64,000 bases of DNA, taken from an uncultured Desulfovibrionaceae bacterium. GTDB lineage: Bacteria; Desulfobacterota; Desulfovibrionia; Desulfovibrionales; Desulfovibrionaceae. Location of the stretch: contig CAYJIN010000002.1 of assembly GCA_964370245.1 (NCBI GenBank), positions 841 through 64,840 on the forward strand, written 5' to 3'. Each line of letters opens with the position of its first letter. The first letter of the stretch is position 1. The notes below the pieces were generated by a model. The model made no database searches and was not told the origin of the DNA. It saw only the letters and a program-made list of their open reading frames with translations. The position numbers and the translations under genes were made by a program. Below are positions 34,216 through 50,303 of the stretch, one piece after another.

Positions 34216-34866
34216 TTATACACGCACGACTTTATCAGCAACATCAATAGCAGTAATAATATCAAGCATATTAGTAAATTGCCCTACTTTCTTTTCGGCT
34301 GTGAGTTTATAGAACTCTAAACATGAAGAGCAAACCAAAACTTCAACTCCGCTATTTTCAATTTTCTTTAATGCTTCTAAAGCAATACCATCATTAGTGC
34401 TCAATTTTACACCGCCATTGAGAAGTATAACTTTCCAAAGTCCATCATTCAATTCTGGTAATGTATTAAGGAAATTTTCCATAAGTTTTGTGCCTAAAAA
34501 GTCGTCGCCAGCGCCAAAAACTTCTGTAGGAATTATTACAAGAATTTTTTGCTCATCAGAAGATTTTGCATGATTTTTAGTTTTTTCATCAGCAACATTA
34601 GTTGCACTATCACTTGAATTTTTGCCTGATAAACCTTTATCATTCAAAGAAGTTGCAGTGATTAGAAAACAATTTTTTCCATCTCTTTCTTCTTCTACAT
34701 ATTCAGAAGAATAATTATTCTTTCCTAAAAATCTTTGCACGTTTTCACAAGAGCCTTCATTATCAACAATAACAATAAAAGATTGTGGTTTTTCATTAGC
34801 AATATAATTTCTGCAGCGAATGACTGGTTCTGGACATGGTAAGCCAATATAATTTTCTTCTTTCAT
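34216..34866 (-). CDS. yedF: YedF-type selenium metabolism protein (TusA-like N-domain + DsrE-like C-domain)
   Basis: N-terminal GLPCPEPV (CPxP TusA motif). The C-terminal part resembles the DsrE/YedF fold (VIIPTEVFGAGDD, LLNGGVKL, VLVCSSC). Confidence 0.7.
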   Translation of the reverse strand: MKEENYIGLPCPEPVIRCRNYIANEKPQSFIVIVDNEGSCENVQRFLGKNNYSSEYVEEERDGKNCFLITATSLNDKGLSGKNSSDSATNVADEKTKNHAKSSDEQKILVIIPTEVFGAGDDFLGTKLMENFLNTLPELNDGLWKVILLNGGVKLSTNDGIALEALKKIENSGVEVLVCSSCLEFYKLTAEKKVGQFTNMLDIITAIDVADKVVRV

Positions 34867-35004: not shown

Positions 35005-36786
35005 TTAGAAAACCATGTGTTCCATATAGTAATTTGAGAAAGCAGGATATGCTGATAATTCAAGGTAAGTAGTTCTATCAATAATAGTTTTTACGTGTGC
35101 ATCAACATTTTTTTCTGTTGCATAGCGAATTACGCCAAGGCTTGCTGCATTACCAATAGCCTTTGTGCAATGCACAAGTTCCGCTGGAATAAGACCAATT
35201 CTGCCAGCATTTTTTGCATTCATCGCAGAACCAAAGCCACCTGCAATGTAAAGACTATCAATATCATCAAAACTAATGCCTGCTTCATCAAGCAAAATAT
35301 GAATTCCTGCACGCACAGCTGATTTCGCTAATTGCACTGATCGAATATCTTTTTGCGTGAAAGAAATGCTCTCTGTAAACTTCACATAAGCTTGCCCATT
35401 ATCGTCTTCAAAAAGACAATTTTCAAGCGAACCACTATCAGCATCAAACATACCAGTTTCATCAACAGCTTCGGCATCTAAAAGCATTGCAAGTGTATCA
35501 ACAACGCCAGAACCACAAATACCACATGCTGGTTTATCATTGATGGTAACATATTCAAATGATTTCTTATCTTCACTAAGAATAACATCACTTATAGCAC
35601 CGCTCTGCCCAGCTAAACCACAAGATATGTTTGCGCCTTCAAAGCATGGACCAGCCGCTGCTGAACATGCAAAAATTTTATCTTTATAACCAAGAACGAT
35701 TTCAGCATTTGTACCTAAATCGAGCAATAAATAAGGTTTTTCAGCACTATGCGCATTCACTGCAAGCAAAGCTGCAACAATATCTGCGCCAATATAGGAA
35801 GAAATAGAAGGCATAAGGAAAACATGCGCTTTTGATTTTATTCCAATTTTATTCGCTTTTACTCTTCTTGCTTCCATTGTTACAGGAATAAAAGGAGCTC
35901 TACCGATATTTTTCGCAGGAAGCCCACAAAGAAGATGCATCATTGTTGTATTACCAGTTATAGTAATATATTGAACATCAGTAACTTCAGGATAAAGATT
36001 TGCATTTTGTAAAAGCTTATTGCAAAGTTTTTCAATTTGACCCGCAACGGCAGATTGCAAAGCTTTAATGTTTTTTTCATAATCAGGTGTTGTTTCAGGA
36101 ATTGTTTGATTTATTCGGCTAAGAACATCCGCACCCCATGAGGCCTGTGCATTTGCTTCACCCATAACTGCTAAAACAGCGCCAGTTTGAAGATCAATAA
36201 GGGTTGTTGCAATAGTTGTTGTACCGATATCAACACTCATAGCTAAGTGATGATCTTTATTGGCTAAACCAATTACTGAATTTTTATATTTCAAAATAGA
36301 TAAAGCATTTTCTTCATGCATTTTATGAGACATAACACCAAGCTCATTAAAACCTAATTTATGGTCTTTGCAGTTTGAAGCTTCTAAAAGACGTGTTACA
36401 TCATCACGTTGATCGTGAATACTTGCCCCTTCAGTTACGATATCAATTCTTTCTACAAGAGGTTGAAATTCATAATTTTGTTCTGAGAAAGTTGTAAGAA
36501 CGGTAAGTGCTGTTTTTTCAAGAAGTTGAATTTCAAGCCCTTCTCTTGCAGTTGTGTAGCAGGCTAGACGGATGTTTTGAGCAAGTAATGATGGATTAAG
36601 CATTGCAACTTCTTCTAGAGTAGGATCAGTATTTGCAATAATGCGGCATTTACCACATTTACCCATTGAACCGCAAGTTTGATGAAGTAAGCCCTTTTCT
36701 TTAAGAAAATTTGTTACAGGAGTTCCCTCTTTTAAAGGAAACATATGTTTTTGCCCGTCATAGGAAACAGCAACGTTAACAGTCAT
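35005..36786 (-). CDS. corrinoid reductive activase (RACo / ASKHA-domain protein with N-terminal 2Fe-2S ferredoxin domain)
   Basis: 593-aa ORF. N-terminal plant-type ferredoxin Cys pattern (CGSMGKCGKCRI...LAC). The remainder resembles the ATP-dependent activators of corrinoid enzymes (DIGTTT, LDLGTNAE, GGFGS). Confidence 0.8.
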   Translation of the reverse strand: MTVNVAVSYDGQKHMFPLKEGTPVTNFLKEKGLLHQTCGSMGKCGKCRIIANTDPTLEEVAMLNPSLLAQNIRLACYTTAREGLEIQLLEKTALTVLTTFSEQNYEFQPLVERIDIVTEGASIHDQRDDVTRLLEASNCKDHKLGFNELGVMSHKMHEENALSILKYKNSVIGLANKDHHLAMSVDIGTTTIATTLIDLQTGAVLAVMGEANAQASWGADVLSRINQTIPETTPDYEKNIKALQSAVAGQIEKLCNKLLQNANLYPEVTDVQYITITGNTTMMHLLCGLPAKNIGRAPFIPVTMEARRVKANKIGIKSKAHVFLMPSISSYIGADIVAALLAVNAHSAEKPYLLLDLGTNAEIVLGYKDKIFACSAAAGPCFEGANISCGLAGQSGAISDVILSEDKKSFEYVTINDKPACGICGSGVVDTLAMLLDAEAVDETGMFDADSGSLENCLFEDDNGQAYVKFTESISFTQKDIRSVQLAKSAVRAGIHILLDEAGISFDDIDSLYIAGGFGSAMNAKNAGRIGLIPAELVHCTKAIGNAASLGVIRYATEKNVDAHVKTIIDRTTYLELSAYPAFSNYYMEHMVF

Positions 36787-37190: not shown

Positions 37191-37835
37191 CTATAATTTA
37201 GAAGCAGCTAATTTAAGAGCAGCTTCAGCAGCTGTTGATGCATCAGGTGTGTAGCAATCAGCGCCAATAGTATCACAGAAACCTTGGTTTACTGGTGCGC
37301 CACCAAGCATAACAACAGTTTTGTCAGCACGTTCGCTACCTTTTACTAAGTTAACAAGGTCTTTCATGAATGCCATTGTTGTTGTAAGAAGTGTTGAACA
37401 AGCGATGATTTGAGCATCGTTTTTGATAGCTTCTTCTAAGAATTTTTCAGGTGCAACGTTTACGCCAAGGTCAATAACTGTAAGACCTTTGCTTTCCATC
37501 ATCATACGAACAAGGTTTTTACCGATATCGTGAAGATCGTCTTTGATAGTACCGATAACAACAACACCTTTGTTTTGTGCTGATTCACCAACAAGAAGTG
37601 GACGAAGAACGTCTGTACCAGCAGCCATAGCACGTGCAGCGATAAGAACTTCAGGAATAAAGATGTCGTTATTTTTGAAACGTTCACCGATGATGTCCAT
37701 ACCAGGCATAAGACCTTTATCTAAAACATCTAATGGTGCAATACCTTCGTCAAGAGCTTGTTGTGTTAAAGCTGCTACGTCTTTAGTTTTACCTTTTTGT
37801 AATGCTGCAGAAAGTTGTTCAAATAATGCGCTCAT
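37191..37835 (-). CDS. cobalamin-binding corrinoid protein (MtbC/MttC/MtgC-like)
   Basis: N-terminal four-helix cap plus a Rossmann B12-binding domain with the DxHxxG motif (KDDLHDIGKN), a TLLTTT block and GGAPV. The start is taken at MSALFEQL after GAGG; the track ORF starts 5 codons earlier. Confidence 0.88.
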   Translation of the reverse strand: MSALFEQLSAALQKGKTKDVAALTQQALDEGIAPLDVLDKGLMPGMDIIGERFKNNDIFIPEVLIAARAMAAGTDVLRPLLVGESAQNKGVVVIGTIKDDLHDIGKNLVRMMMESKGLTVIDLGVNVAPEKFLEEAIKNDAQIIACSTLLTTTMAFMKDLVNLVKGSERADKTVVMLGGAPVNQGFCDTIGADCYTPDASTAAEAALKLAASKL

Positions 37836-37876
37836 AGTAGAATACCTCATATATTCATTAAAGTGTTAGTAGAAAA

Positions 37877-38761
37877 TTACAAAAGCTCCTCAATTTGCTT
37901 TTGCAAAGCCTCTCCTGTATTTTGCATACAAATAACTGTCAAAGGAACTTTTGGCATATCGTTTTTCTTCGATATAATTCCTTCTGGGCTATCAGTAATA
38001 AACCATACATCACTTCCAACTTCCACACAGCCTTTCACTCGTAAAAGTGAATCGTAAGATGATAAAACATCAATTAAAGCTTGTAAGTCTTTCACAGGTT
38101 TGGTTAAAGTGAAAGTATCAAGCCTTGTTTCTGGTGTGTTGAAAGAAAGTAATGGCATATTTTGTGGTAAAACCATATTCTTTGGTAATGATTGCAAATC
38201 TAAGTTTCCGTGATAGCTGTCAACAACAGGCACAGAAGGATTTACAGAAAGAATATAGTCGCGCGATGCTTGACGTTCCTCTTCAGTTGTTACATCAGAT
38301 TTGGTTAAGATGACAACATGTGCAGCTTTCACTTGACGTGGTATTACTTCTAATACATTAGCAAGTTTCAAGCTACGTTTAGGGTCAAACAAGCATATTA
38401 TGAGTGGTTCTTCATAATATTGATCAAGTTTAGCAAGATTGAGCATTTTAGTAACACCAGTAGGATCAGACATACCAGATGCTTCAACTAATACTCTTTC
38501 AGAATTATTTAATGAAAGTTGGAAAAGAGCTTTTACAAAGGCTTCTTTCAAGCAAGAACAAAAAACTGAGCCACCACCGATTTCAACTAATGGTGAATCG
38601 CCTTTTTCACTATCAATTAAAGCGCCATCAACAGGTGTGTCGCCAAAATCATTTAGTAAAACAGCAAGTCTTTTATCTTTACTTGATTTTATAAGATTTT
38701 GTAATATTGTTGTTTTTCCCGTGCCTAAAAAGCCCGAAAGAATAATAAGCTCTTTCTTCAT
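37877..38761 (-). CDS. CobW/COG0523-type G3E P-loop GTPase
   Basis: Walker A GFLGTGKTT, LNDFGD, and GGSVFCSC in place of the canonical GCICC, then EASGMSDP and TKSD. The start is set at the ATG (MKKELI). Confidence 0.75.
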   Translation of the reverse strand: MKKELIILSGFLGTGKTTILQNLIKSSKDKRLAVLLNDFGDTPVDGALIDSEKGDSPLVEIGGGSVFCSCLKEAFVKALFQLSLNNSERVLVEASGMSDPTGVTKMLNLAKLDQYYEEPLIICLFDPKRSLKLANVLEVIPRQVKAAHVVILTKSDVTTEEERQASRDYILSVNPSVPVVDSYHGNLDLQSLPKNMVLPQNMPLLSFNTPETRLDTFTLTKPVKDLQALIDVLSSYDSLLRVKGCVEVGSDVWFITDSPEGIISKKNDMPKVPLTVICMQNTGEALQKQIEELL

Positions 38762-38817
38762 TAAATAAACCAATCTTACGTGTTTTGATTAATAATATTT
38801 ATAGCATAATTTCAAAT

Positions 38818-38876: not shown

Positions 38877-39917
38877 TTAATACTTATAAGCTTTTGCCAT
38901 TTCAACCATTTTTTGTGGGAAAGTGAAGTCTAGACAAGCTGGGAATTCACAACCAGTTGAAAGTACAAAACGTTGGGAAGGAGCAAAAATTTCAAATTCT
39001 TCATTAATTTTTGCTTCTAAAGTTTCTAAGTTCGCAGTCATGAACCAGCCTGGATCAATTGTGCCCATAAGAATAAATTTATCAGCATATTTTTCTACTG
39101 CTTCTTCCATTGTTGAACAGCCAGCAGGAATGTGGTTGAAAGAAACAAGTGATGGTTTCATTGTTTCGTATTGTTCATCAAAGTAAGCGCCTTGGCCACA
39201 GTTATGAAGCATAACTAGTTTGCCGTTTGCACGCACTCTATCAGCTAAACGAACCATGAAGTCGCCTTCAAATTCTTGCCACATACCAACGCTCATGATT
39301 GATTTTGAAGCATATAATGTATCAAACATAATAGCATCAACGCCAGTAGCACAAAGTTGGTCAATCCATTCTTCTAAAACTTGTGTAACAACTTCAACAG
39401 CTTCTAAAATTCCTTCAGGTGCTGTGTAAAGTTCCATAAACATATCTTCTTGGCCACGTAACATACTAACAATACCAAGTGGGCCGAAAACAAAAGCTAC
39501 AACAGGAATATCTTCGCCTAATTCTTTTACTAAAATTTCGCAAAGTTCAACGTGTTCTTGCATACGTGTAGCTGTTTTAAGATCAATCTTTTTAACATTG
39601 CCATAATCATCTTCTGTTGGAACAACGCGTTGATGGTGATCAGGGCATGCTGCTTTATCATTGAAATATAAAAGTGGTTGACCAAAGTCAGCAGCTTCAA
39701 CTGATAAATCAACTAAAGTACAAGCGCAATCTAAATCAAGTTCACGAGTTGTTTTGATGATAGCTTCAGCACATTTGTGAACATCTTTTGTCCATTCTTC
39801 ATAGTCGATACCGATTGCATTTCTTGAAACACTGTTGATAAGTGGGTAAACAGGAACACGATCAATAGGTTGTTTATTAAGCATTGCTGTTATGCGTTGT
39901 CTAGGTGTCATTGACAT
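38877..39917 (-). CDS. URO-D-family methylcobamide methyltransferase (MtaA/MtbA-like)
   Basis: 346-aa ORF with a typical N-terminus (RQRITAMLNKQPIDRVPV), an HxCG zinc motif (LHNCGQG) and a downstream Cys (STGCEFP). Confidence 0.75.
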   Translation of the reverse strand: MSMTPRQRITAMLNKQPIDRVPVYPLINSVSRNAIGIDYEEWTKDVHKCAEAIIKTTRELDLDCACTLVDLSVEAADFGQPLLYFNDKAACPDHHQRVVPTEDDYGNVKKIDLKTATRMQEHVELCEILVKELGEDIPVVAFVFGPLGIVSMLRGQEDMFMELYTAPEGILEAVEVVTQVLEEWIDQLCATGVDAIMFDTLYASKSIMSVGMWQEFEGDFMVRLADRVRANGKLVMLHNCGQGAYFDEQYETMKPSLVSFNHIPAGCSTMEEAVEKYADKFILMGTIDPGWFMTANLETLEAKINEEFEIFAPSQRFVLSTGCEFPACLDFTFPQKMVEMAKAYKY

Positions 39918-39955
39918 AATATATAGTCCTTAAAATTTGTAATAAGTAAATAATT

Positions 39956-39987
39956 ATAAAAAATGCAGCAAGGTTTCCCCTGCTGCA
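39956..39987 (-). terminator. rho-independent terminator between the two URO-D-family genes
   Basis: On the minus strand TGCAGCAGG pairs with CCTTGCTGCA (one bulged base), followed by TTTTTT (plus-strand A run 39958-39963). Confidence 0.7.
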
Positions 39988-39994
39988 AAATAAA

Positions 39995-41350
39995 TTAAGC
40001 TTTTATGTCTAAAGCTTCTTGAAGCTCAGCAGCTAATTTTTGAACAGGTGGAATAAGTGAAATGTGGCGAACTTCACCATCAATCATAATTGAAGGAAGG
40101 TTTGCTAAGCCAACTTTAGTGATGTAAGCAAGAGTTTCTTTATACATAATTGAACGCTCAACAACTTTAACTTTATCACCAAAGCCTTTAGCTGCATCAT
40201 TTGCTGCTGCAACCATGTAACCACAAGCAGCACATGTTTGTGAATCAATTGTGATAACTTCTAAAGTTACATAATCATTCGCTTTGAAATCAGGAATTTC
40301 AACATCAGGAAGATCTGAAACTGCAACATAGCTTTCTAAAGCTTTACGCACTGCTTCAGTATTGTGAACTGCTTGACCAACACCAGCAACGTTTGCAGCA
40401 GGTGCATCAAATGGAACGTCACAACCAGGTGCAAGAATGAAGTTCTTTTTACCCATTTTATCCATCAATTCGATAGCTTCTTTTTGGTTATCTTGTTGTG
40501 TGCCAAGAAGCATTGTAATTGTAAGCTGTAAGTTACCTGACATTACGATATTGTAAGCATCAGTAATTTTTTTAGCTTCAACGATGTTTACGTTTTCATC
40601 GATAGCAATACATGATGGTTTTGTTTTACACATAGGTTCGATATTTTTAGTTGCATCACCACATACGAAGAATGATGAAGGAATGCCTAAATCTTCAATT
40701 GTTTTGAAGAGTCTTGAATATGAATCGTGTAAGAAAGTTTCAAACATATCAGGTGAAATTTGTGATACGAGTGGATCAACCGCTGCAATAATATCACAAC
40801 CAGCTTCAATGTAGTATTTTGCTAAATCAATAACAACATCTGTGCAGTATTCAACTAAAGCTTTAACTTCATCTTCGCTATCATACATATCCATGAAGAT
40901 ACCTGTTCCGCGTAAGTGAGAAGCTAATGTGAAAGGCCCACAAACTAAACCATACATTGCAATTTCAGGTTTAGCAGCTTTGAAGCGTTTCATAACGTCC
41001 ATAATTAATGGAATACGGCCGTCTGTTTTTTGTAATTTTTGTGTAGGAATTGTAAATTCGTTTGAAAGAGGGTGTGTGCAAACTGTTGGAGGTGTGTTTT
41101 TATACCATGTTAAGTCACAACCTAAGATTTCAGCTTCAACCTGTAAATCAAAGATTGCTGGCATACCATCAGCTTGATAGTCATCAGCTGCTTGTAAAAG
41201 ACACTCTAAGTATTTGTCTGCATTTTGGAACATTTCATCAGCTGCATAACCTTTTAAGTTAGCAATTTGTGAACCTGTATATGGAACCCAAGGTGTACGT
41301 GCAACATCTTTACCTTGTAAAACGTCCATAATAATCTGTTTACCTGTCAT
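39995..41350 (-). CDS. URO-D-family methyltransferase fused to a C-terminal thioredoxin-like (CxxC) domain
   Basis: The N-terminal 340 aa or so are URO-D/MtaA-like (DVARTPWVPYTG, FDLQVEAEILG, APGCDVP). The C-terminal 95 aa or so resemble small redox-active disulfide proteins (TCAACGYM...LPSIMIDGEV). Confidence 0.7.
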   Translation of the reverse strand: MTGKQIIMDVLQGKDVARTPWVPYTGSQIANLKGYAADEMFQNADKYLECLLQAADDYQADGMPAIFDLQVEAEILGCDLTWYKNTPPTVCTHPLSNEFTIPTQKLQKTDGRIPLIMDVMKRFKAAKPEIAMYGLVCGPFTLASHLRGTGIFMDMYDSEDEVKALVEYCTDVVIDLAKYYIEAGCDIIAAVDPLVSQISPDMFETFLHDSYSRLFKTIEDLGIPSSFFVCGDATKNIEPMCKTKPSCIAIDENVNIVEAKKITDAYNIVMSGNLQLTITMLLGTQQDNQKEAIELMDKMGKKNFILAPGCDVPFDAPAANVAGVGQAVHNTEAVRKALESYVAVSDLPDVEIPDFKANDYVTLEVITIDSQTCAACGYMVAAANDAAKGFGDKVKVVERSIMYKETLAYITKVGLANLPSIMIDGEVRHISLIPPVQKLAAELQEALDIKA

Positions 41351-41768: not shown

Positions 41769-42758
41769 CTATTTTAAAGCTTCAACAACTTTATCAACAA
41801 CTTCTTTACCGCCTACGAATTCGTAGTTTTTCGGCCAGATTTCGTCAATAGCAATTTGTTTCCATACTTGTTCATCTTCTAATTCAAAAACTTCAACGCC
41901 GCCAGCTTCCATAACAGCTCTAGCTTTTGCAGCATTTTCATTTTCCCAATCAAGAACATGCATTTGTGCAGCTAATGATGCATCTAACACGATTTGTTGA
42001 AGATCAGCTGGATAGCTTTGGAAGTTTTTCTCACCAATAAAACATGGTAAAAGTGAATATTGGTAGTGAACTTCAGTGAGGTAATCTTGAACTTCTTGGA
42101 ATTTCATAGTTGCGTTTACAACATATGGATTATCTTGCCCATCAACAACGCCTTGTTGCAAAGCAGTAAATGTTTCTGCCCATGCCATAGGAATTGGGTT
42201 TGCGCCCCAAGCTGAATATGTATCAACAAATACAGGGTTGTTAGGAACGCGGATTTTCAATCCTTTAATATCATTGATATTTTTTACAGGACGTTTTGAG
42301 TTTGTAAGATATCTATAGTTAGCATATGCATAACCTAAAATTCTTATGCCACCCTTTTCAATTGACATATTATTAAAGAAGTCAAACATTTCACCTGTTG
42401 TAGCTTTTACAACAGCTTCATCATTTTCCATCAAATAAGGCAATGTGAGTGTAGCTAAACCAGAAACGAAAGGAACAGCATTACCAATACCGATAACGCA
42501 CATATCAAGTGAACCACGGCGAACGTTTTGAAGCATTTCTGTTTCGTCACCTAAAGAAGAGTTTGGAAACAACTCAACAGTAACTTTACCGTTAGTTTCA
42601 GCTTCAACAATTTCTTTAAATTTTTTGCCGTATTCGCCAGAGCCTGAATCAATAGGATCACCGAGACCCATTTTGATTACGTCTTTTGCTAATGCATCAC
42701 CAGCACCAAGTGTAAGGCATACACCAAGAAGTGCACATGTAAAAAACTTTTTGAACAT
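41769..42758 (-). CDS. TRAP transporter solute-binding protein (DctP family), no DctQ/DctM partner nearby
   Basis: 329-aa ORF with a signal peptide (MFKKFFTCALLGVCLTLGAGDALA) and DctP-like sequence. AAGAGG RBS. Confidence 0.8.
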   Translation of the reverse strand: MFKKFFTCALLGVCLTLGAGDALAKDVIKMGLGDPIDSGSGEYGKKFKEIVEAETNGKVTVELFPNSSLGDETEMLQNVRRGSLDMCVIGIGNAVPFVSGLATLTLPYLMENDEAVVKATTGEMFDFFNNMSIEKGGIRILGYAYANYRYLTNSKRPVKNINDIKGLKIRVPNNPVFVDTYSAWGANPIPMAWAETFTALQQGVVDGQDNPYVVNATMKFQEVQDYLTEVHYQYSLLPCFIGEKNFQSYPADLQQIVLDASLAAQMHVLDWENENAAKARAVMEAGGVEVFELEDEQVWKQIAIDEIWPKNYEFVGGKEVVDKVVEALK

Positions 42759-44996: not shown

Positions 44997-45435
44997 ATGC
45001 ATAAATTTCCTTCTAAAATGTAGAATATTTGTTTGCCTCTGAACAGTCTAGCATTAAACTATGTTATTACTTATTATTTAATAATTCATTGACCAATCAA
45101 CCAATTATTTTGTTTAAATATTTGAAAAGTCAATAAAATGTCTTGACTAATTTATATTATTATGGCATTACTATACATAAATATTTGGTTGGAAAAAGTG
45201 TTTTAACCTTTTCAACCAAAAAAATAAAAGGAGTAACTGTCGACAATCAACAATAATTTTTTTGCTGCTTTTTATTTTCCTTCACAAAATTAATAAAGAA
45301 AAAAATATGATGACCAAACATCATAATAATCTTTATAATGAATAGTTAAACTGTTGATTTTTTTTCTAATAGCTTAACTACTTAGTATGAGGCGCTTTTT
45401 GTGAAAAAATTCTAAAGTTTATGGAGTATTTATTT

Positions 45436-46866
45436 ATGTTTCCAATGAGTAAAATCAAATTAATTGACAAAGAAACCATTGAAAAAATTCACGAAGGAAC
45501 TTGCGAAGTTCTTGAAAAAGCTGGCGTTAACTTTCACCACGAAAGCGCACAGAAAATTTTTAAAGATGCTGGCTGTACAGTAGACGGCTGTAACGTAAAA
45601 ATTCCTAGAAATGTTTTTGAAAAAGCTCTTAGTCAAACTCCTTCTTCATTCACAATGCATGGTATAGATCCAAAATATACTTTTGTAGTTGGTGAAGGCC
45701 AAGAAAGAATTCACACAGATCCTAACTTTGGTACTATTATTATTCATGAGCACGGCAAAGGCTATCGTGAACCAACCATGGAAGATTTAGCAATTAACAA
45801 TAAACTTCTTCAAGCAAGTGAAATTGTTGATATTGCTGGCGGTATTCCAGTTGAATGTACTGACGTTCCTACAGTTGGCCGTCACTTGCACTACTTCCGT
45901 GAGATTTTACGTCACACAACTAAACCTTTCCGTTCATATGTTGAAAGCTATGAAAATTTACAAGAAATGTTCACCATGTTTGAAATGGTTCAAGGCACAA
46001 AAGGCTATCTTGATAACCACACATGTATGTTCGTTTCAATCAACCCATTAAGCCCATTAGCTTATGACAGCCACCCAGCACAAACACTTATTGCTATGGC
46101 TGAAAAACACCAAGCAGTTTGTACTTTAACTGCTGCTATTTCAGGCTTCACATCACCAATGAGTATCCTCGGTACTGCTGTTATGCAAAATGCTGAAATG
46201 CTTGCTGGTAATACACTTATGCAATTAGTAAACCCAGGTGCTCCTTACATGTTAGGACCAGCATCAGCTCGTCCAGATATGCGCACAGGTTTATATGCTA
46301 ACGGTTCACCAGAAGCTAACCTTATTAATATTTCAAGCATGCAAGTTGCTAAAGAACTTTACAACATCCCAACCCGTACAATGGCTGGTTTGACAGATGC
46401 TAAAGTTACTGATGCTCAAGCTGGTATGGAAACAATGCAAACTCTTATGACTGCAATGCTTGGTGGCGCTGACGTTATCCACGGTTGTATGGCATCAATG
46501 GATAGCTTAAACCTTACTTCATTTGAAAAATTTGTAATTTCTGAAGAAGCATTCTCACGTGTAATGCGTACCCAAAAAGGTATTTATAACTACGATACTG
46601 ATTTATCAGTTCAAGAAATTATTGATACTAAACCAGCTGGTACATACATGATGAACGATGCTACCCTCCTTAACTGCTCTGATACATGGCGCCCAATTGT
46701 TTCTTCACAAGAACCTTTCGCAATCTGGAAAGATGGTGGTGAAAAAACTATCGTTGATCGTGCACTTGCAAAATGGAAACAAATGCTTGCTGATGCTCCT
46801 GAAATGCAAATTTCAAAAGCTCTTGATGATGAGCTTGGCGCTTACATCAAAAAATGCGGTTACTAA
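45436..46866 (+). CDS. MttB-superfamily methyltransferase without in-frame amber codon (non-Pyl; quaternary-amine:corrinoid methyltransferase-like)
   Basis: About 476-aa ORF with an MttB-type N-terminus (LIDKETIEKIHEGTCEVLEKAGVNFHH...AGCTVDG) and an uninterrupted frame. The start is taken at the ATG 9 nt after GGAG; the track ORF starts at 45421. Confidence 0.85.
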   Translation: MFPMSKIKLIDKETIEKIHEGTCEVLEKAGVNFHHESAQKIFKDAGCTVDGCNVKIPRNVFEKALSQTPSSFTMHGIDPKYTFVVGEGQERIHTDPNFGTIIIHEHGKGYREPTMEDLAINNKLLQASEIVDIAGGIPVECTDVPTVGRHLHYFREILRHTTKPFRSYVESYENLQEMFTMFEMVQGTKGYLDNHTCMFVSINPLSPLAYDSHPAQTLIAMAEKHQAVCTLTAAISGFTSPMSILGTAVMQNAEMLAGNTLMQLVNPGAPYMLGPASARPDMRTGLYANGSPEANLINISSMQVAKELYNIPTRTMAGLTDAKVTDAQAGMETMQTLMTAMLGGADVIHGCMASMDSLNLTSFEKFVISEEAFSRVMRTQKGIYNYDTDLSVQEIIDTKPAGTYMMNDATLLNCSDTWRPIVSSQEPFAIWKDGGEKTIVDRALAKWKQMLADAPEMQISKALDDELGAYIKKCGY

Positions 46867-48926: not shown

Positions 48927-50303
48927 ATGAGACTTATTGATATTTACAGACGTACTACTTCAGGAGAAAAAGTAGACGAAAGTTCATACGATCTTGATTA
49001 CGTATACTTTGGTCTTGAAGATGTTAAAGAAAAATATGACATCAAATATAGCCCAGAAAACCCAGTTTCTGCTGATGATGATTTAGCTGACCGTGTTTTC
49101 AATGCAGCTGTAGAATTCTTTGAAAAAACAGGTATGTACTGTTCAGATACAGGGCGTATTGTTAAATTTACACGTGAAGAAATTGAATTTGCTATTTCAG
49201 AAGAAGGCCATCGCCGTTGTATCGGTGGTGAAGGCGAAAGCCGTCGTGAATGGCGTTGCCGTCGTCCTGACGAACACAGCCGCCCATGGTGCCACATTGG
49301 TTCAGGTATCTACACAAGCTCAGACGAACTTTTCTTAAAACAAGTTGAAGCTTATGCTAGAATTGCTCGTGCTGACTCAATGGCAATTCCAACTCTTATG
49401 AACGATCCTGAAGGTAATGATAACAACGAAGATTTCGCTTCACATCCATCAGAAGTTATGGCTACAATGCACAACATGCGTTTAGCTCGTGAAGCATGTA
49501 AAAATGCTGGCCGTCCTGGCTTCCCAGTATTCAACGTTGTTCCTTCATCATCATGCGCAATGTCAACAATCGCTGCTTCACACCCTAACTGTGGAACACG
49601 CACATCAGACGGTTGGTTATGTGCATTCTATCCTGAATTCAAATTGAAATTAGAAACACTTAACAAAATCACTTTCATCAATGAAATTGGTGGTAACCCA
49701 GCTGCTGAAGCTTCAACACTTCTTGGCGGTTTCTGTGGTGGTCCTGAAAACACATCTATCGGTGTTGTTGCTCACGCTATCATGGGTTGCTTACTCAACT
49801 GTACTTACTACTTAAACTTCCCAGTTACAGTAAAAGGCGCTCACTCAACAAGCCGTCCTCTTCTTTGGAGCTTAGGTCTTGCTTCACAAGCGATTTCTCG
49901 TAACATATTCTTACCTACATACAACTCAGGTTACTCAGCACACGGTGCAGGTACTAAAGAATACTTCTATCAATCAGCTGCTTACATCTTAACAGGTGTT
50001 ACATCTGGTGTTACAACAGGTACTCCTTTCCCTGCTGTTGGTGTTAAAACTGATGGTATGACTCCAATGGAGCCATTATTCCACACATTAATGGCTGATG
50101 CTGCATCAAAATTAACACGTGCACAAGCTAACCCAATCGTTCTAAAACTTCTTGAAAAATATGAAGATAAATTAGACAATCCAGATCTTGGTTACACATT
50201 CCCAGAACTCTACGACCTTGATACAGTAACTCCAAAACCACATTACCAAAAAATGTTTGATGAAGTTATTGAAGAATTAAAAGCTTTAGGCGTGCCTTTA
50301 TAA
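48927..50303 (+). CDS. MtmB-family (monomethylamine methyltransferase-like) protein lacking pyrrolysine
   Basis: 458-aa uninterrupted ORF. It is colinear by eye with archaeal MtmB as I recall it (GMYCSDTGRIVKFTREEI; ACKNAGRPG; C-terminal TFPELYDLDTVTPKPHY...LKALGVPL). The position matching Pyl202 is TTC (Phe) at 49530-49532. Confidence 0.75.
   Translation: MRLIDIYRRTTSGEKVDESSYDLDYVYFGLEDVKEKYDIKYSPENPVSADDDLADRVFNAAVEFFEKTGMYCSDTGRIVKFTREEIEFAISEEGHRRCIGGEGESRREWRCRRPDEHSRPWCHIGSGIYTSSDELFLKQVEAYARIARADSMAIPTLMNDPEGNDNNEDFASHPSEVMATMHNMRLAREACKNAGRPGFPVFNVVPSSSCAMSTIAASHPNCGTRTSDGWLCAFYPEFKLKLETLNKITFINEIGGNPAAEASTLLGGFCGGPENTSIGVVAHAIMGCLLNCTYYLNFPVTVKGAHSTSRPLLWSLGLASQAISRNIFLPTYNSGYSAHGAGTKEYFYQSAAYILTGVTSGVTTGTPFPAVGVKTDGMTPMEPLFHTLMADAASKLTRAQANPIVLKLLEKYEDKLDNPDLGYTFPELYDLDTVTPKPHYQKMFDEVIEELKALGVPL

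What the first reader, a model, noticed from the sequence alone, without database searches (positions are those of the whole stretch)
39995..41350. URO-D-type methyltransferase fused to a thioredoxin-like CxxC domain
The first 340 residues or so look like an MtaA/MtbA/URO-D-family methyltransferase. The usual HxCG zinc motif reads FVCG, whereas the neighbouring paralog at 38877..39917 keeps LHNCG. The last 95 residues or so resemble the small stand-alone redox-active disulfide proteins (TCAACGYM...LPSIMIDGEV...). Fusing a thiol-disulfide domain to a methyl-corrinoid methyltransferase suggests either a protein or small-molecule thiol as methyl acceptor, or redox control of the transferase. A rho-independent terminator (39956-39987) separates this gene from the second URO-D gene, so the two may be expressed at different levels.
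Basis: partly seen in the sequence, partly recalled or inferred. Interest (0 to 1): 0.6.

Follow-up and report, generated by a model that had tools for sequence, protein, structure and literature searches.

The report
Thioredoxin-fused B12-system methyltransferase
This gene really does encode a vitamin-B12-system methyltransferase joined to a small thioredoxin-like domain, and this widespread but unstudied enzyme type is the best candidate for the missing second methyl-transfer step in bacterial breakdown of trimethylamine-like compounds, methanol and methoxy compounds.

Summary
ORF 39995..41350 (minus strand, 451 aa) has an MtaA-like URO-D barrel (Pfam E 1e-58; nearest structure M. mazei MtaA). 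A linker joins it to a thioredoxin-fold domain with the motif C373-A-A-C376.

The fusion is not an artefact. At least 554 stretches in the one-genome-per-species collection encode it. In 197 full-length copies, Phe228 (where MtaA has its zinc-binding His), Cys230, Cys373, Cys376 and the cis-Pro419 never vary; Cys310 varies once. Two lineages encode barrel and thioredoxin module as adjacent separate genes, so they are functional partners. A CobW-type GTPase with a reduced CxC motif follows the fusion in about 60 of 80 loci.

The fusion belongs to a well-supported "F-x-C" clade nested among His-Cys-Cys MtaA-like enzymes. Across genomes it sits beside a corrinoid protein, a RACo activase and varied first methyltransferases (MttB, MtaB, O-demethylase-type URO-D). 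No pterin-type methyltransferase appeared among the commoner operon partners. The window's genome has no dedicated one.

Best reading: it is the second ("MT-II") methyltransferase of this island. The thioredoxin module and GTPase probably maintain or load its cysteine metal site. The methyl acceptor and the CxxC chemistry are unresolved. I found no published characterisation.

The parts
39995..41350 (-). Gene for the 451-aa URO-D/MtaA-like barrel fused to a thioredoxin-fold domain (called FUS here), stop codon included
   Evidence: ORF list; Pfam and NCBIfam; full-length homologues of 447-454 aa at 55-89% identity
40331..41350 (-). MtaA-like TIM-barrel domain, residues 1 to about 340
   Evidence: URO-D E 1.1e-58; 4ay7 profile hit E 5.5e-31; fold search TM 0.86-0.87
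40661..40669 (-). F228-V229-C230, the site of the H-x-C zinc motif of MtaA; His is replaced by Phe and Cys is kept
   Evidence: Alignment to 4ay7; F228 and C230 present in 197/197 homologues; read directly from the sequence
40421..40423 (-). Cys310, in L-A-P-G-C-D; equivalent to the second zinc-binding Cys of MtaA
   Evidence: Alignment to 4ay7; present in 196/197 homologues
40271..40330 (-). Conserved linker, residues 341-360 (Y341, P353, D354, Y355)
   Evidence: Invariant columns; pLDDT 79-88 in the full model
39998..40270 (-). Thioredoxin-fold domain, residues 361-451
   Evidence: Thioredoxin_3 hit in 24/24 orthologous domains; 1nho, 1fo5 and 1ilo profile hits; thioredoxins are the top fold matches
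40223..40234 (-). C373-A-A-C376 motif at the N-terminus of the first helix of the thioredoxin-fold domain
   Evidence: Minus strand reads TGT GCT GCT TGT; both Cys present in 197/197; CAAC in 79 and CSAC in 1 of 80 loci
39954..39987 (-). Intrinsic-terminator-like hairpin and T-tract between FUS and the second URO-D gene
   Evidence: Consensus scan; RNA fold -19 kcal/mol, z -4.8
38877..39917 (-). Second URO-D paralogue (346 aa) with an intact His-Cys-Cys pattern (L-H-N-C-G ... S-T-G-C-E)
   Evidence: Pfam URO-D E 8e-48; motif table; separate clade with L001, L011 and L049
37877..38773 (-). CobW-type G3E GTPase with F-C-S-C in place of the canonical G-C-x-C-C motif
   Evidence: Pfam cobW E 5e-32; conserved motifs across 61 FUS-linked orthologues
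37191..37850 (-). Stand-alone corrinoid (B12-binding) protein
   Evidence: B12-binding_2 plus B12-binding domains; TIGR02370 E 1.2e-55
35005..36786 (-). RACo-type reductive activase of corrinoid proteins
   Evidence: RACo_C_ter E 3.6e-69 and Raco_middle E 6e-47
45421..46866 (+). Non-pyrrolysine MttB-family methyltransferase; candidate first methyltransferase (MT-I) feeding the corrinoid protein
   Evidence: Pfam MTTB E 1.2e-100
48927..50303 (+). MtmB-like ORF; a second candidate MT-I according to an earlier scan note
41769..42758 (-). TRAP-type DctP solute-binding protein, upstream on the same strand
   Evidence: Pfam DctP E 4.5e-69; TRAP genes also lie near FUS-type genes in L007-L009, L011, L019 and L094

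Best explanation
FUS is the second methyltransferase (the "MT-II" slot) of a three-component corrinoid methyl-transfer system. In this island an MttB-like and an MtmB-like enzyme would move a methyl group from a quaternary or methylated amine onto the Co(I) corrinoid protein. RACo keeps that protein active. FUS would then take the methyl group off methyl-Co(III) and pass it to a cellular acceptor.

FUS belongs to a distinct F-x-C clade derived from His-Cys-Cys MtaA-like enzymes. It has lost the zinc-binding His but keeps both Cys and the Glu. The thioredoxin-fold CxxC module is a dedicated partner of this altered site, fused here and encoded as a separate gene elsewhere. Together with the usually adjacent CobW-type GTPase, it most likely keeps the two ligand cysteines reduced and/or hands over the metal. 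Two analogies, both from my own knowledge: Sco-type thioredoxin-fold proteins work alongside copper chaperones at the CuA site, and the thioredoxin-fold chaperone ArsD serves the ATPase ArsA.

Shown: the architecture, its conservation, the split forms, the gene-neighbourhood position and the phylogenetic placement. Inferred: the MT-II role (my estimate about 0.7) and the site-maintenance or loading role of the CxxC (about 0.35). Open: the acceptor. A thiol or selenol and tetrahydrofolate both remain possible, and CoM is unlikely.
For: 1. Architecture and conservation.

2. Position in operons. Excluding CobW, the corrinoid protein and RACo, the same-strand partners of FUS in 80 loci are other URO-D proteins (10), radical SAM proteins (8), DUF2284 (5), AraC/PocR regulators (4-5), MtaB (3) and Hcy S-methyltransferase (2). 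Pterin_bind is not among the 25 commonest families.

3. Compact three-component operons.
- DctQM, corrinoid protein, MttB, FUS-type (L094).
- URO-D, corrinoid protein, FUS-type, RACo (L095).
- AraC, FUS, CobW, corrinoid protein, MtaB (L042).
- pylSBCD, FUS, URO-D, CobW, corrinoid protein, DUF1638 x2, RACo, MttB (L001).

4. URO-D neighbours of FUS are mostly of the O-demethylase ligand type, H-x-D/C with a later H or Y. That makes them the MT-I and FUS the MT-II.

5. The window's genome (93.5% complete) has Pterin_bind only in a 287-aa and an 819-aa ORF, which I read as FolP-like and MetH-like from their lengths. It has no MtrH and only the two URO-D genes.

6. In 101 Desulfovibrionaceae genomes, FUS occurs in 5. 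All 5 carry a stand-alone corrinoid protein next to it. About 5-6 of the other 96 genomes have a stand-alone corrinoid protein.

7. Link between the thioredoxin module and the barrel.
- Every fused member has F-x-C, and no H-x-C member has the tail.
- Split forms exist: barrel, then a 100-aa Thioredoxin_3 protein, then CobW (L089); and barrel, then a 130-aa CxxC thioredoxin-like protein (L091).

8. CobW lies downstream of FUS in 61 loci, starting within -31 to +181 nt of the FUS stop in 55 of them. It has conserved E..GS.FCxC and NKxD motifs.

9. A Cys-less relative, P0150, has no CobW, corrinoid protein or RACo nearby.
Against: - No biochemical data exist for any member.
- I could not read model coordinates, so I do not know whether the CxxC lies near Cys230 and Cys310.
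- CobW is absent next to FUS-type genes of two other subclades (L094, L095) and next to some unfused F-x-C barrels, so it is not obligatory.
- Co-loss of the barrel cysteines and the CxxC is not consistent. P0150 lost all of them, P0209 lost the CxxC but keeps Cys310, and P0263 keeps the CxxC but lost Cys310.
- Related subclades carry CAPC or CPPC. These look like redox-active thioredoxin motifs and would also fit a substrate-directed thiol-disulfide step.
- A second His-Cys-Cys URO-D lies in the same operon and could itself be the MT-II.
- Three loci place an F-x-C barrel beside an Hcy S-methyltransferase. There the barrel might act on the methyl-donor side.
Confidence: 0.45

Rival explanations
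1. The CxxC is part of the catalytic metal site. One or both thioredoxin-domain cysteines replace the lost His, so the barrel's Cys230 and Cys310 plus Cys373 and/or Cys376 form a Cys3 or Cys4 zinc site. This would resemble the all-Cys zinc sites of MetH and BHMT that activate a thiol acceptor.
For: The thioredoxin module occurs only with barrels that lack the His ligand. All four cysteines are effectively invariant in 197 sequences. The two-domain model has a high pTM of 0.87 and the linker is confidently modelled. P0150 lost all four cysteines together.
Against: Unfused F-x-C barrels with no thioredoxin gene nearby exist (P0128, P0135, P0136). The discordant losses in P0209 and P0263 argue against a single shared site. 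The retained cis-Pro and the CAPC/CPPC variants are typical of thiol-disulfide thioredoxins rather than structural zinc sites. No geometry is available.
Confidence: 0.2
2. The thioredoxin domain acts on the substrate, not on the enzyme. It would reduce a disulfide, persulfide or selenium adduct to expose the sulfur or selenium nucleophile that is methylated. Alternatively it would capture the sulfide or selenide released on demethylation. [quoted passage not shown]
For: MtaA-like homologues in mlp clusters are proposed S/Se methyltransferases, and ClMlp2 demethylates methylcobalamin with selenide (PMC10418091). The best NCBIfam hit of the domain is a thioredoxin-like (seleno)protein family, and the CobW partner hits the 'CobW-related selenoprotein' family at E 2.7e-12. 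The selenium-metabolism gene yedF lies just downstream of RACo in this window. CxPC variants look redox-active.
Against: yedF was found in none of the 80 related loci. mlp proteins are described as His-Cys-Cys, which FUS is not. The FUS context is dominated by catabolic MT-I genes (MttB, MtaB, O-demethylases), not by sulfur or selenium genes.
Confidence: 0.15
3. The domain is a redox switch. Oxidation of the CxxC to a disulfide would turn the methyltransferase off during oxidative stress, and reduction would turn it on. This was one of the first reader's two suggestions.
For: The fold is a true thioredoxin fold with CxxC and cis-Pro. All hosts named in the records appear to be anaerobes. Oxidised corrinoid systems need costly ATP-dependent reactivation by RACo (established knowledge).
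Against: A switch does not explain why the module is restricted to His-less barrels, why it is paired with a G3E GTPase, or why the 13-residue block around the CxxC is so strictly conserved.
Confidence: 0.1
4. FUS is a first methyltransferase (MT-I). It would demethylate a small methylated compound, such as a methylthio compound or methyl-tetrahydrofolate, onto the corrinoid protein. The His-Cys-Cys paralogue or another enzyme would perform the second step.
For: F-x-C barrels sit beside Hcy S-methyltransferase genes in L022, L031, L079 and L086, where a methyl-donor-side enzyme of a split methionine synthase would be expected. MtsA-type relatives catalyse both half-reactions (cited in PMC10418091). 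The window operon has a second, canonical URO-D that could be the MT-II.
Against: Compact operons contain one clear MT-I (MttB, MtaB or an O-type URO-D), a corrinoid protein and FUS as the only other methyltransferase. Conservation of 48-60% identity across phyla fits a common acceptor better than varied substrates.
Confidence: 0.08

Closest known systems
MtaA / MtbA / MtsA, the soluble methylcobamide:coenzyme M methyltransferases of Methanosarcina (URO-D superfamily; PDB 4ay7/4ay8)
   Same: Same TIM-barrel fold, and the best sequence and fold match. Both zinc-binding Cys and the Glu are kept. It is encoded with a corrinoid protein, an MT-I and an activase, in the MT-II slot.
   Different: The zinc-binding His is Phe, invariantly. 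It carries an extra thioredoxin-fold CxxC domain. It is paired with a CobW-type GTPase. It scores far below the NCBIfam cut-offs for MtaA and MtbA (131 against 400 bits and 124 against 600 bits). The hosts named in the records are bacteria rather than methanogens, which (my knowledge) are not known to make coenzyme M. Extra polar residues at the barrel mouth (D68, Q70, E72, D232, N253, D311) differ from MtaA.
Mlp1-3 of type 1 mlp gene clusters (Kountz and Balskus 2023, PMC10418091), including the Methanococcus voltae sdm genes
   Same: Bacterial MtaA-like proteins clustered with a corrinoid protein and a RACo/Ram activase and lacking a pterin-type MT-II. Several URO-D paralogues occur per cluster.
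   Different: Mlps are described as invariably His-Cys-Cys, except some Mlp1. That paper mentions no thioredoxin fusion and no CobW. FUS clusters carry MttB, MtaB or O-demethylase MT-I genes.
Small archaeal thioredoxin/glutaredoxin-like proteins MJ0307, MtH807 and MtH895 (Pfam Thioredoxin_3; PDB 1fo5, 1nho, 1ilo)
   Same: Minimal beta-alpha-beta-alpha-beta-beta-alpha thioredoxin fold of about 80-90 residues, with CxxC at the first helix and a cis-Pro before strand 3.
   Different: The module is fused to, or encoded next to, a methyltransferase barrel. The CAAC dipeptide is invariant. A search for free-standing proteins found only fragments of the fusion.
Thioredoxin-fold metal-site helpers: Sco proteins with copper chaperones at the CuA site, and ArsD with the ATPase ArsA (from my own knowledge)
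   Same: A thioredoxin-fold Cys motif serves a client's cysteine-ligated metal(loid) site together with a separate chaperone or NTPase. Two orthologous domains give weak ArsD hits, E 0.0026.
   Different: This is an analogy only. No sequence relationship is shown beyond the common fold. The metal here is unknown and the partner is a G3E GTPase.
COG0523 / CobW-family G3E GTPases (ZigA, YeiR, ZNG1, CobW)
   Same: The partner gene has a Walker A motif, an NKxD motif and the G3E nucleotide-binding domain.
   Different: Its metal motif is reduced from CxCC to F-C-x-C, and Pfam matched only the nucleotide-binding part (residues 10-184 of 298). It is tied to a specific client gene, which is rare for bacterial COG0523 proteins.

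Membership tests
URO-D superfamily (Pfam PF01208) | Sequence match above the curated cut-off, and the (beta/alpha)8 URO-D fold | tested here: met
   199.4 bits against a cut-off of 23.9; Foldseek hits to 4ay7 and HemE structures with TM 0.74-0.87 on the target
MtaA/MtbA methylcobamide:CoM methyltransferases | His-Cys-Cys zinc ligand set (H-x-C ... C) | tested here: not met
   His is replaced by Phe228 in 197/197 homologues; Cys230 and Cys310 are kept
MtaA/MtbA methylcobamide:CoM methyltransferases | Score above the NCBIfam cut-offs (MtaA_Meth 400 bits, MtbA 600 bits, mtaA_cmuA subfamily 235 bits) | tested here: not met
   131.2, 123.6 and 153.5 bits respectively
MtaA/MtbA methylcobamide:CoM methyltransferases | Encoded with a cognate corrinoid protein and a substrate-specific MT-I | tested here: met
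   Window operon; L042, L094, L095, L001; corrinoid protein lies beside FUS in all 5 FUS-bearing Desulfovibrionaceae genomes
MtaA/MtbA methylcobamide:CoM methyltransferases | Catalyses methyl transfer from methyl-Co(III) to coenzyme M | not testable with these tools
   Needs an enzyme assay
Thioredoxin fold, Thioredoxin_3 type (PF13192) | HMM match | tested here: inconclusive
   The window's own domain scores 19.3-22.6 bits, below the cut-off of 24.8. All 24 orthologous domains match at E <= 0.01, best 1.7e-9. The family profile hits 1nho at E 1.3e-7
Thioredoxin fold, Thioredoxin_3 type (PF13192) | beta-alpha-beta-alpha-beta-beta-alpha topology, CxxC at the N-terminus of helix 1, and cis-Pro before strand 3 | tested here: met
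   DSSP on both models; thioredoxins are the top structural neighbours; C373, C376 and P419 present in 197/197. That Pro419 is in the cis conformation is inferred, not shown
Thioredoxin fold, Thioredoxin_3 type (PF13192) | Reversible dithiol/disulfide redox activity | not testable with these tools
   Needs redox titration or an insulin/DTNB-type assay
Type 1 mlp gene cluster (Kountz and Balskus 2023) | [quoted passage not shown] | tested here: inconclusive
   The corrinoid protein and RACo are present, and the paralogue at 38877..39917 is His-Cys-Cys. FUS is not His-Cys-Cys. Orthology to Mlp2/Mlp3 was not tested because no reference sequences were on hand
COG0523 / CobW G3E GTPase (partner gene 37877..38773) | Walker A, NKxD and the CxCC metal-binding motif | tested here: inconclusive
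   GFLGxGKT and NKxD are conserved, but the motif is F-C-x-C and so lacks one Cys. Pfam cobW domain E 5e-32

The most novel reading that the evidence does not exclude
The F-x-C barrel, its thioredoxin-fold CxxC module and the CxC-type G3E GTPase together form a previously unrecognised kind of bacterial second methyltransferase. It would be the missing enzyme that takes methyl groups off the corrinoid proteins of the trimethylamine/quaternary-amine (MttB), methanol (MtaB) and O-demethylase systems in non-acetogenic anaerobes, including gut Bilophila. It would do so either as the first URO-D-fold enzyme to methylate tetrahydrofolate or by using a non-CoM sulfur or selenium acceptor. Its metal site would be assembled or repaired by a built-in thioredoxin module and a dedicated GTPase.
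Probability: 0.35. Interest if true: 0.8.

Novelty: new variant of a known kind. Interest (0 to 1): 0.6.

Why it matters
Gut and sediment anaerobes remove methyl groups from trimethylamine, betaines, choline-derived amines, methanol and methoxylated aromatics. This affects trimethylamine and TMAO levels and carbon cycling.

For bacteria that lack the acetogen-type pterin methyltransferase, the enzyme that unloads the methyl-corrinoid protein is unknown. [quoted passage not shown] This fusion is a concrete, widespread candidate. It sits directly downstream of the pyrrolysine genes in TMA clusters of close relatives, so the question becomes directly testable.

It also offers a rare, genetically defined client for a bacterial COG0523 GTPase. 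In addition it is a new use of a thioredoxin fold beside a Cys-ligated catalytic metal site.

Tried and rejected
- CxxC geometry. I wanted to measure whether the CxxC faces the barrel's cysteines, but model coordinates are not exposed to any tool or to the Python box. Only pLDDT, pTM and secondary structure were available.
- Co-loss test. I looked for joint loss of the barrel cysteines and the CxxC as a proxy for a shared site. There is one concordant case (P0150) and two discordant ones (P0209, P0263) among 24 cluster representatives, so the result is equivocal.
- Covariation analysis. I dropped this because the key residues never vary and the roughly 200 sequences are too similar to one another.
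- Free-standing relatives. A search with the 97-aa domain alone returned only two fragments of the fusion.
- Expression data.
- Regulatory RNA. Rfam found no riboswitch or other RNA family near the operon.
- Literature. Six full-text searches and six papers read found no description of the fusion or its GTPase partner.
- Rejected ideas. An assembly or frameshift artefact is ruled out by the many genomes carrying the fusion. A heavy-metal-associated (HMA) domain, suggested by the resemblance of T-C-A-A-C to the GMxCxxC loop, is ruled out because the topology is thioredoxin-like rather than beta-alpha-beta-beta-alpha-beta. A selenium link through the neighbouring yedF as a general feature is ruled out because yedF appears in 0 of 80 loci.
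Full report
**What is there.** The ORF at 39995..41350 on the minus strand encodes 451 aa. I call it FUS. A good Shine-Dalgarno sequence (AGGAG) precedes its ATG. Pfam places a URO-D domain at residues 4-330 (E 1.1e-58) and a weak Thioredoxin_3 match at residues 367-439 (19.3 bits against a cut-off of 24.8). NCBIfam ranks the MtaA/CmuA, MtaA and MtbA models highest for the barrel, all far below their cut-offs. For the tail it lists three small thioredoxin-like families.

A profile built from 20 full-length orthologues hits M. mazei MtaA (PDB 4ay7, E 5.5e-31, residues 5-327). Separately it hits the small archaeal thioredoxins 1nho (E 1.3e-7, residues 361-446), 1fo5 and 1ilo. The AlphaFold model of the whole protein is confident (pLDDT 88.5, pTM 0.87), and its best PDB neighbours are 4ay8 and 4ay7.

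Modelled alone, the last 97 residues fold as beta-alpha-beta-alpha-beta-beta-alpha (pLDDT 87.6). Their top structural neighbours are thioredoxins, with 147 matches at E <= 1e-3. All 24 orthologous tails tested hit Thioredoxin_3, best E 1.7e-9. That includes the terminator-like hairpin after the stop codon: minus strand 39987..39964, a 10-bp stem, then TTTTTTAT, -19 kcal/mol, z -4.8.

**The metal motif.** In the alignment to MtaA, L-H-I-C-G-N pairs with F-F-V-C-G-D, and L-A-P-G-C-G pairs with L-A-P-G-C-D. The zinc-binding His is therefore Phe228, while Cys230, Cys310 and Glu252 (MtaA also has Glu at this position) remain. In 197 full-length homologues the counts are:
- F228, 197 of 197
- C230, 197 of 197
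- E252, 196 of 197
- C310, 196 of 197
- C373, 197 of 197
- C376, 197 of 197
- P419, 197 of 197

The motif reads CAAC in 79 of 80 related genomic loci and CSAC in the other. The block T-I-D-S-x-T-C-A-A-C-G-Y-M is the most conserved part of the tail.

**Not an artefact, and widespread.** The protein-database search returned full-length proteins of 447-454 aa at 55-89% identity. They come from Desulfovibrionaceae (Mailhella, Bilophila), Desulfoluna, many spirochaetes, Anaerolineae, Lachnospiraceae, Oscillospiraceae, Melioribacteraceae, a Vibrio MAG, Ilyobacter and one archaeal MAG. Sources name them only "uroporphyrinogen decarboxylase family protein".

Within Desulfovibrionaceae the gene is patchy, present in 5 of 101 sampled genomes and absent from the one same-genus genome sampled. 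The island's GC content (34.8%) matches the rest of the window (33.5%), so it is not a recent import here.

**Gene neighbourhood.**
- *CobW-type GTPase.* It is the commonest neighbour, found in 62 of 80 loci. In 55 of the 61 loci where it lies downstream of FUS, it starts within -31 to +181 nt of the FUS stop. It has conserved GFLGxGKT, E..GS.FCxC and NKxD motifs, so its metal motif is CxC rather than the canonical CxCC.
- *Other frequent neighbours.* A corrinoid protein occurs in 33-38 loci, RACo in 32-33, AraC/PocR regulators in 17, a radical-SAM/BATS protein in 12, and DUF1638 and DUF2284 less often.
- *This window.* The window is one of the few cases where a second URO-D gene lies between FUS and the GTPase.
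- *Partner methyltransferases.* They vary between loci: MttB family, MtaB (L032, L039, L042) and other URO-D proteins.
- *Ligand pattern of the URO-D neighbours.* They mostly show the pattern that the literature associates with O-demethylases, H-x-D/C with a later H or Y (rule taken from PMC10418091).
- *No pterin-type enzyme.* A Pfam census of 147 same-strand operon partners did not place a pterin-binding methyltransferase among the 25 commonest families.
- *Compact operons* make the point most clearly:
  - DctQ, DctM, corrinoid protein, MttB, FUS-type (L094).
  - URO-D, corrinoid protein, FUS-type, RACo (L095).
  - AraC, FUS, CobW, corrinoid protein, MtaB (L042).
  - In the closest relatives, pylS-B-C-D, FUS, URO-D, CobW, corrinoid protein, DUF1638, DUF1638, RACo, MttB (L001).

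FUS therefore sits where the second methyltransferase (MT-II) of a three-component system sits.

**The window's own genome.** It is 93.5% complete. It has Pterin_bind domains only in a 287-aa and an 819-aa ORF, which I read as FolP-like and MetH-like from their lengths. It has no MtrH, and its only URO-D genes are the two in this operon. It nonetheless encodes MttB-like and MtmB-like first methyltransferases, a stand-alone corrinoid protein and RACo.

In the 101 Desulfovibrionaceae genomes, a stand-alone corrinoid protein (ORF of about 214-300 aa) occurs in roughly 10-11. These include all five FUS carriers, where it lies next to FUS.

**Where the family sits.** A search of 1.8 billion cluster representatives gave 256 hits at E <= 1e-30. 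In a motif table of full-length representatives, every member with a thioredoxin tail and an intact CxxC has F-x-C, E and C in the barrel. None of the roughly 55 H-x-C members has the tail. Unfused F-x-C barrels also exist.

A maximum-likelihood tree puts all of these into one clade of 46 rows (SH-aLRT 99), nested within the His-Cys-Cys MtaA-like radiation. The CAAC-type fusions form a subclade of 22 rows. The thioredoxin tail needs at least three gains or losses on this tree. The window's second URO-D belongs to a distant His-Cys-Cys clade together with L001, L011 and L049.

**Split forms.** Two unfused F-x-C barrels are followed by a separate thioredoxin-like gene. In L089 the order is barrel, a 100-aa Thioredoxin_3 protein (..LDSAGCAPCTYM..), a CobW protein, then RACo. 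In L091 the order is URO-D, corrinoid protein, barrel, then a 130-aa protein (..LDSVQCAACGYM..). A third barrel (L090) is followed directly by a CobW gene whose start overlaps the barrel's stop. This is classic fusion/fission evidence that barrel, thioredoxin module and GTPase work together.

Other unfused members have neither partner nearby. They lie in PTS-type sugar clusters or beside an Hcy S-methyltransferase.

A degenerate relative, P0150, keeps the tail but has lost C230, E252, C310 and both CxxC cysteines. It has no CobW, corrinoid protein or RACo nearby. However, P0209 and P0263 each lost only one of the two sites, so co-loss is not a rule.

**How it most likely works.**
- *Shown:* a conserved MtaA-derived barrel with a modified cysteine site, a dedicated thioredoxin-fold CxxC partner, a frequent G3E GTPase partner, and the MT-II position in corrinoid systems with several kinds of MT-I.
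- *Inferred:* FUS demethylates the methyl-Co(III) corrinoid protein. The thioredoxin module, with the GTPase, services the Cys230/Cys310 site by keeping the ligands reduced and/or passing the metal.
- *Basis for the inference:* I draw on established knowledge. Zinc-thiolate sites of MetE/MtaA-type enzymes are sensitive to oxidation. G3E GTPases load metal sites. Thioredoxin-fold proteins such as Sco and ArsD act as helpers at Cys-ligated metal(loid) sites.
- *Rival readings:* the CxxC supplies ligands directly, it acts on a sulfur or selenium substrate, it is a redox switch, or FUS is an MT-I.

**The acceptor is open.**
- Retention of two soft ligands argues for a thiol or selenol.
- The universal distribution, the position beside Hcy S-methyltransferase modules (where MetH carries its methyl-tetrahydrofolate module) and the extra polar residues at the barrel mouth relative to MtaA would fit tetrahydrofolate.
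- Coenzyme M is unlikely given the hosts.

**Literature.** Kivenson et al. [quoted passage not shown] The Bilophila TMA paper does not mention a URO-D gene (PMC7593587). Kountz and Balskus describe MtaA-like "Mlp" clusters with His-Cys-Cys sites and a proposed sulfur/selenium role, but no thioredoxin fusion or CobW (PMC10418091). A 2026 paper on chloromethane dehalogenation lists the known URO-D-type MT-I enzymes and the pterin-type MT-II enzymes (PMC13222342). I found no paper on this fusion.

Earlier notes of this scan report the same architecture in more than a dozen other genomes, likewise as unstudied. I treated these as leads only.

**Verdict.** This is a real, strongly conserved and uncharacterised variant of the MtaA-type corrinoid methyltransferases. 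Its mechanistic guesses remain open, and context adds a better-supported frame: the MT-II slot, with upkeep of the metal site involving a GTPase.

Noticed in passing
L001:5843-9988, L002:1025-4176, L011:5553-9596: In the closest relatives (Mailhella-like and Desulfovibrionaceae MAGs), the pyrrolysine genes pylS, pylB, pylC and pylD lie directly upstream of the FUS orthologue on the same strand. The window has a TRAP DctP gene at that position, and its MttB-like gene has no amber codon.
   Followed up: partly
window 34216-34866 (-): A YedF-type selenium-metabolism protein (TusA plus DsrE-like, TIGR03527 E 1e-53) lies 138 nt downstream of RACo on the same strand. It was found in none of the 80 related loci, so the linkage looks local.
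   Followed up: partly
L089:4001-6365: A split version of the module: unfused F-V-C barrel, then a 100-aa Thioredoxin_3 protein (CAPC), then a 197-aa CobW with a G-G-C-I-C-G motif, then a 131-aa Cys-rich protein of unknown family, then RACo.
   Followed up: partly
L092:4001-5368 (protein P0150): A 455-aa relative keeps the barrel and the thioredoxin-like tail but has lost Cys230, Glu252, Cys310 and both CxxC cysteines. It sits beside a ferredoxin-like protein and an Rrf2 regulator rather than corrinoid genes, so it may be a pseudo-enzyme or have a new function.
   Followed up: partly
L085:1564-6011 and L088:811-5029: Pairs of unfused URO-D genes (one of F-V-C type) are embedded in galactitol-type PTS operons (EIIC-GAT, IIB, IIA) together with corrinoid proteins and PocR/AraC regulators. 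This hints at demethylation of methylated sugars or polyols.
   Followed up: no
L022:6700-7590, L031:12078-12815, L086:2613-3458: Stand-alone homocysteine S-methyltransferase (PF02574) genes lie directly downstream of F-x-C barrels, with or without CobW and a corrinoid protein. This looks like a modular methionine synthase in which the barrel stands where the pterin module would be.
   Followed up: partly
L032:18171-18845 and relatives in L031, L039, L064, L076: A conserved protein of about 225 aa with no Pfam or NCBIfam match recurs at the end of FUS operons that also contain MtaB or a corrinoid protein.
   Followed up: no
L038, L040, L043, L044, L047, L055, L056, L058, L076 (for example L043:4849-5847): A radical-SAM protein with a BATS domain, distantly like BioB and PylB, sits next to FUS and CobW in many Clostridia loci. 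Its function is unknown.
   Followed up: no
window, whole (GC 33.9%): The GC content is unusually low for a member of Desulfovibrionaceae. The closest FUS locus, L001 (uncultured Mailhella sp.), is 34% GC, whereas Bilophila (L004) is 62%.
   Followed up: no
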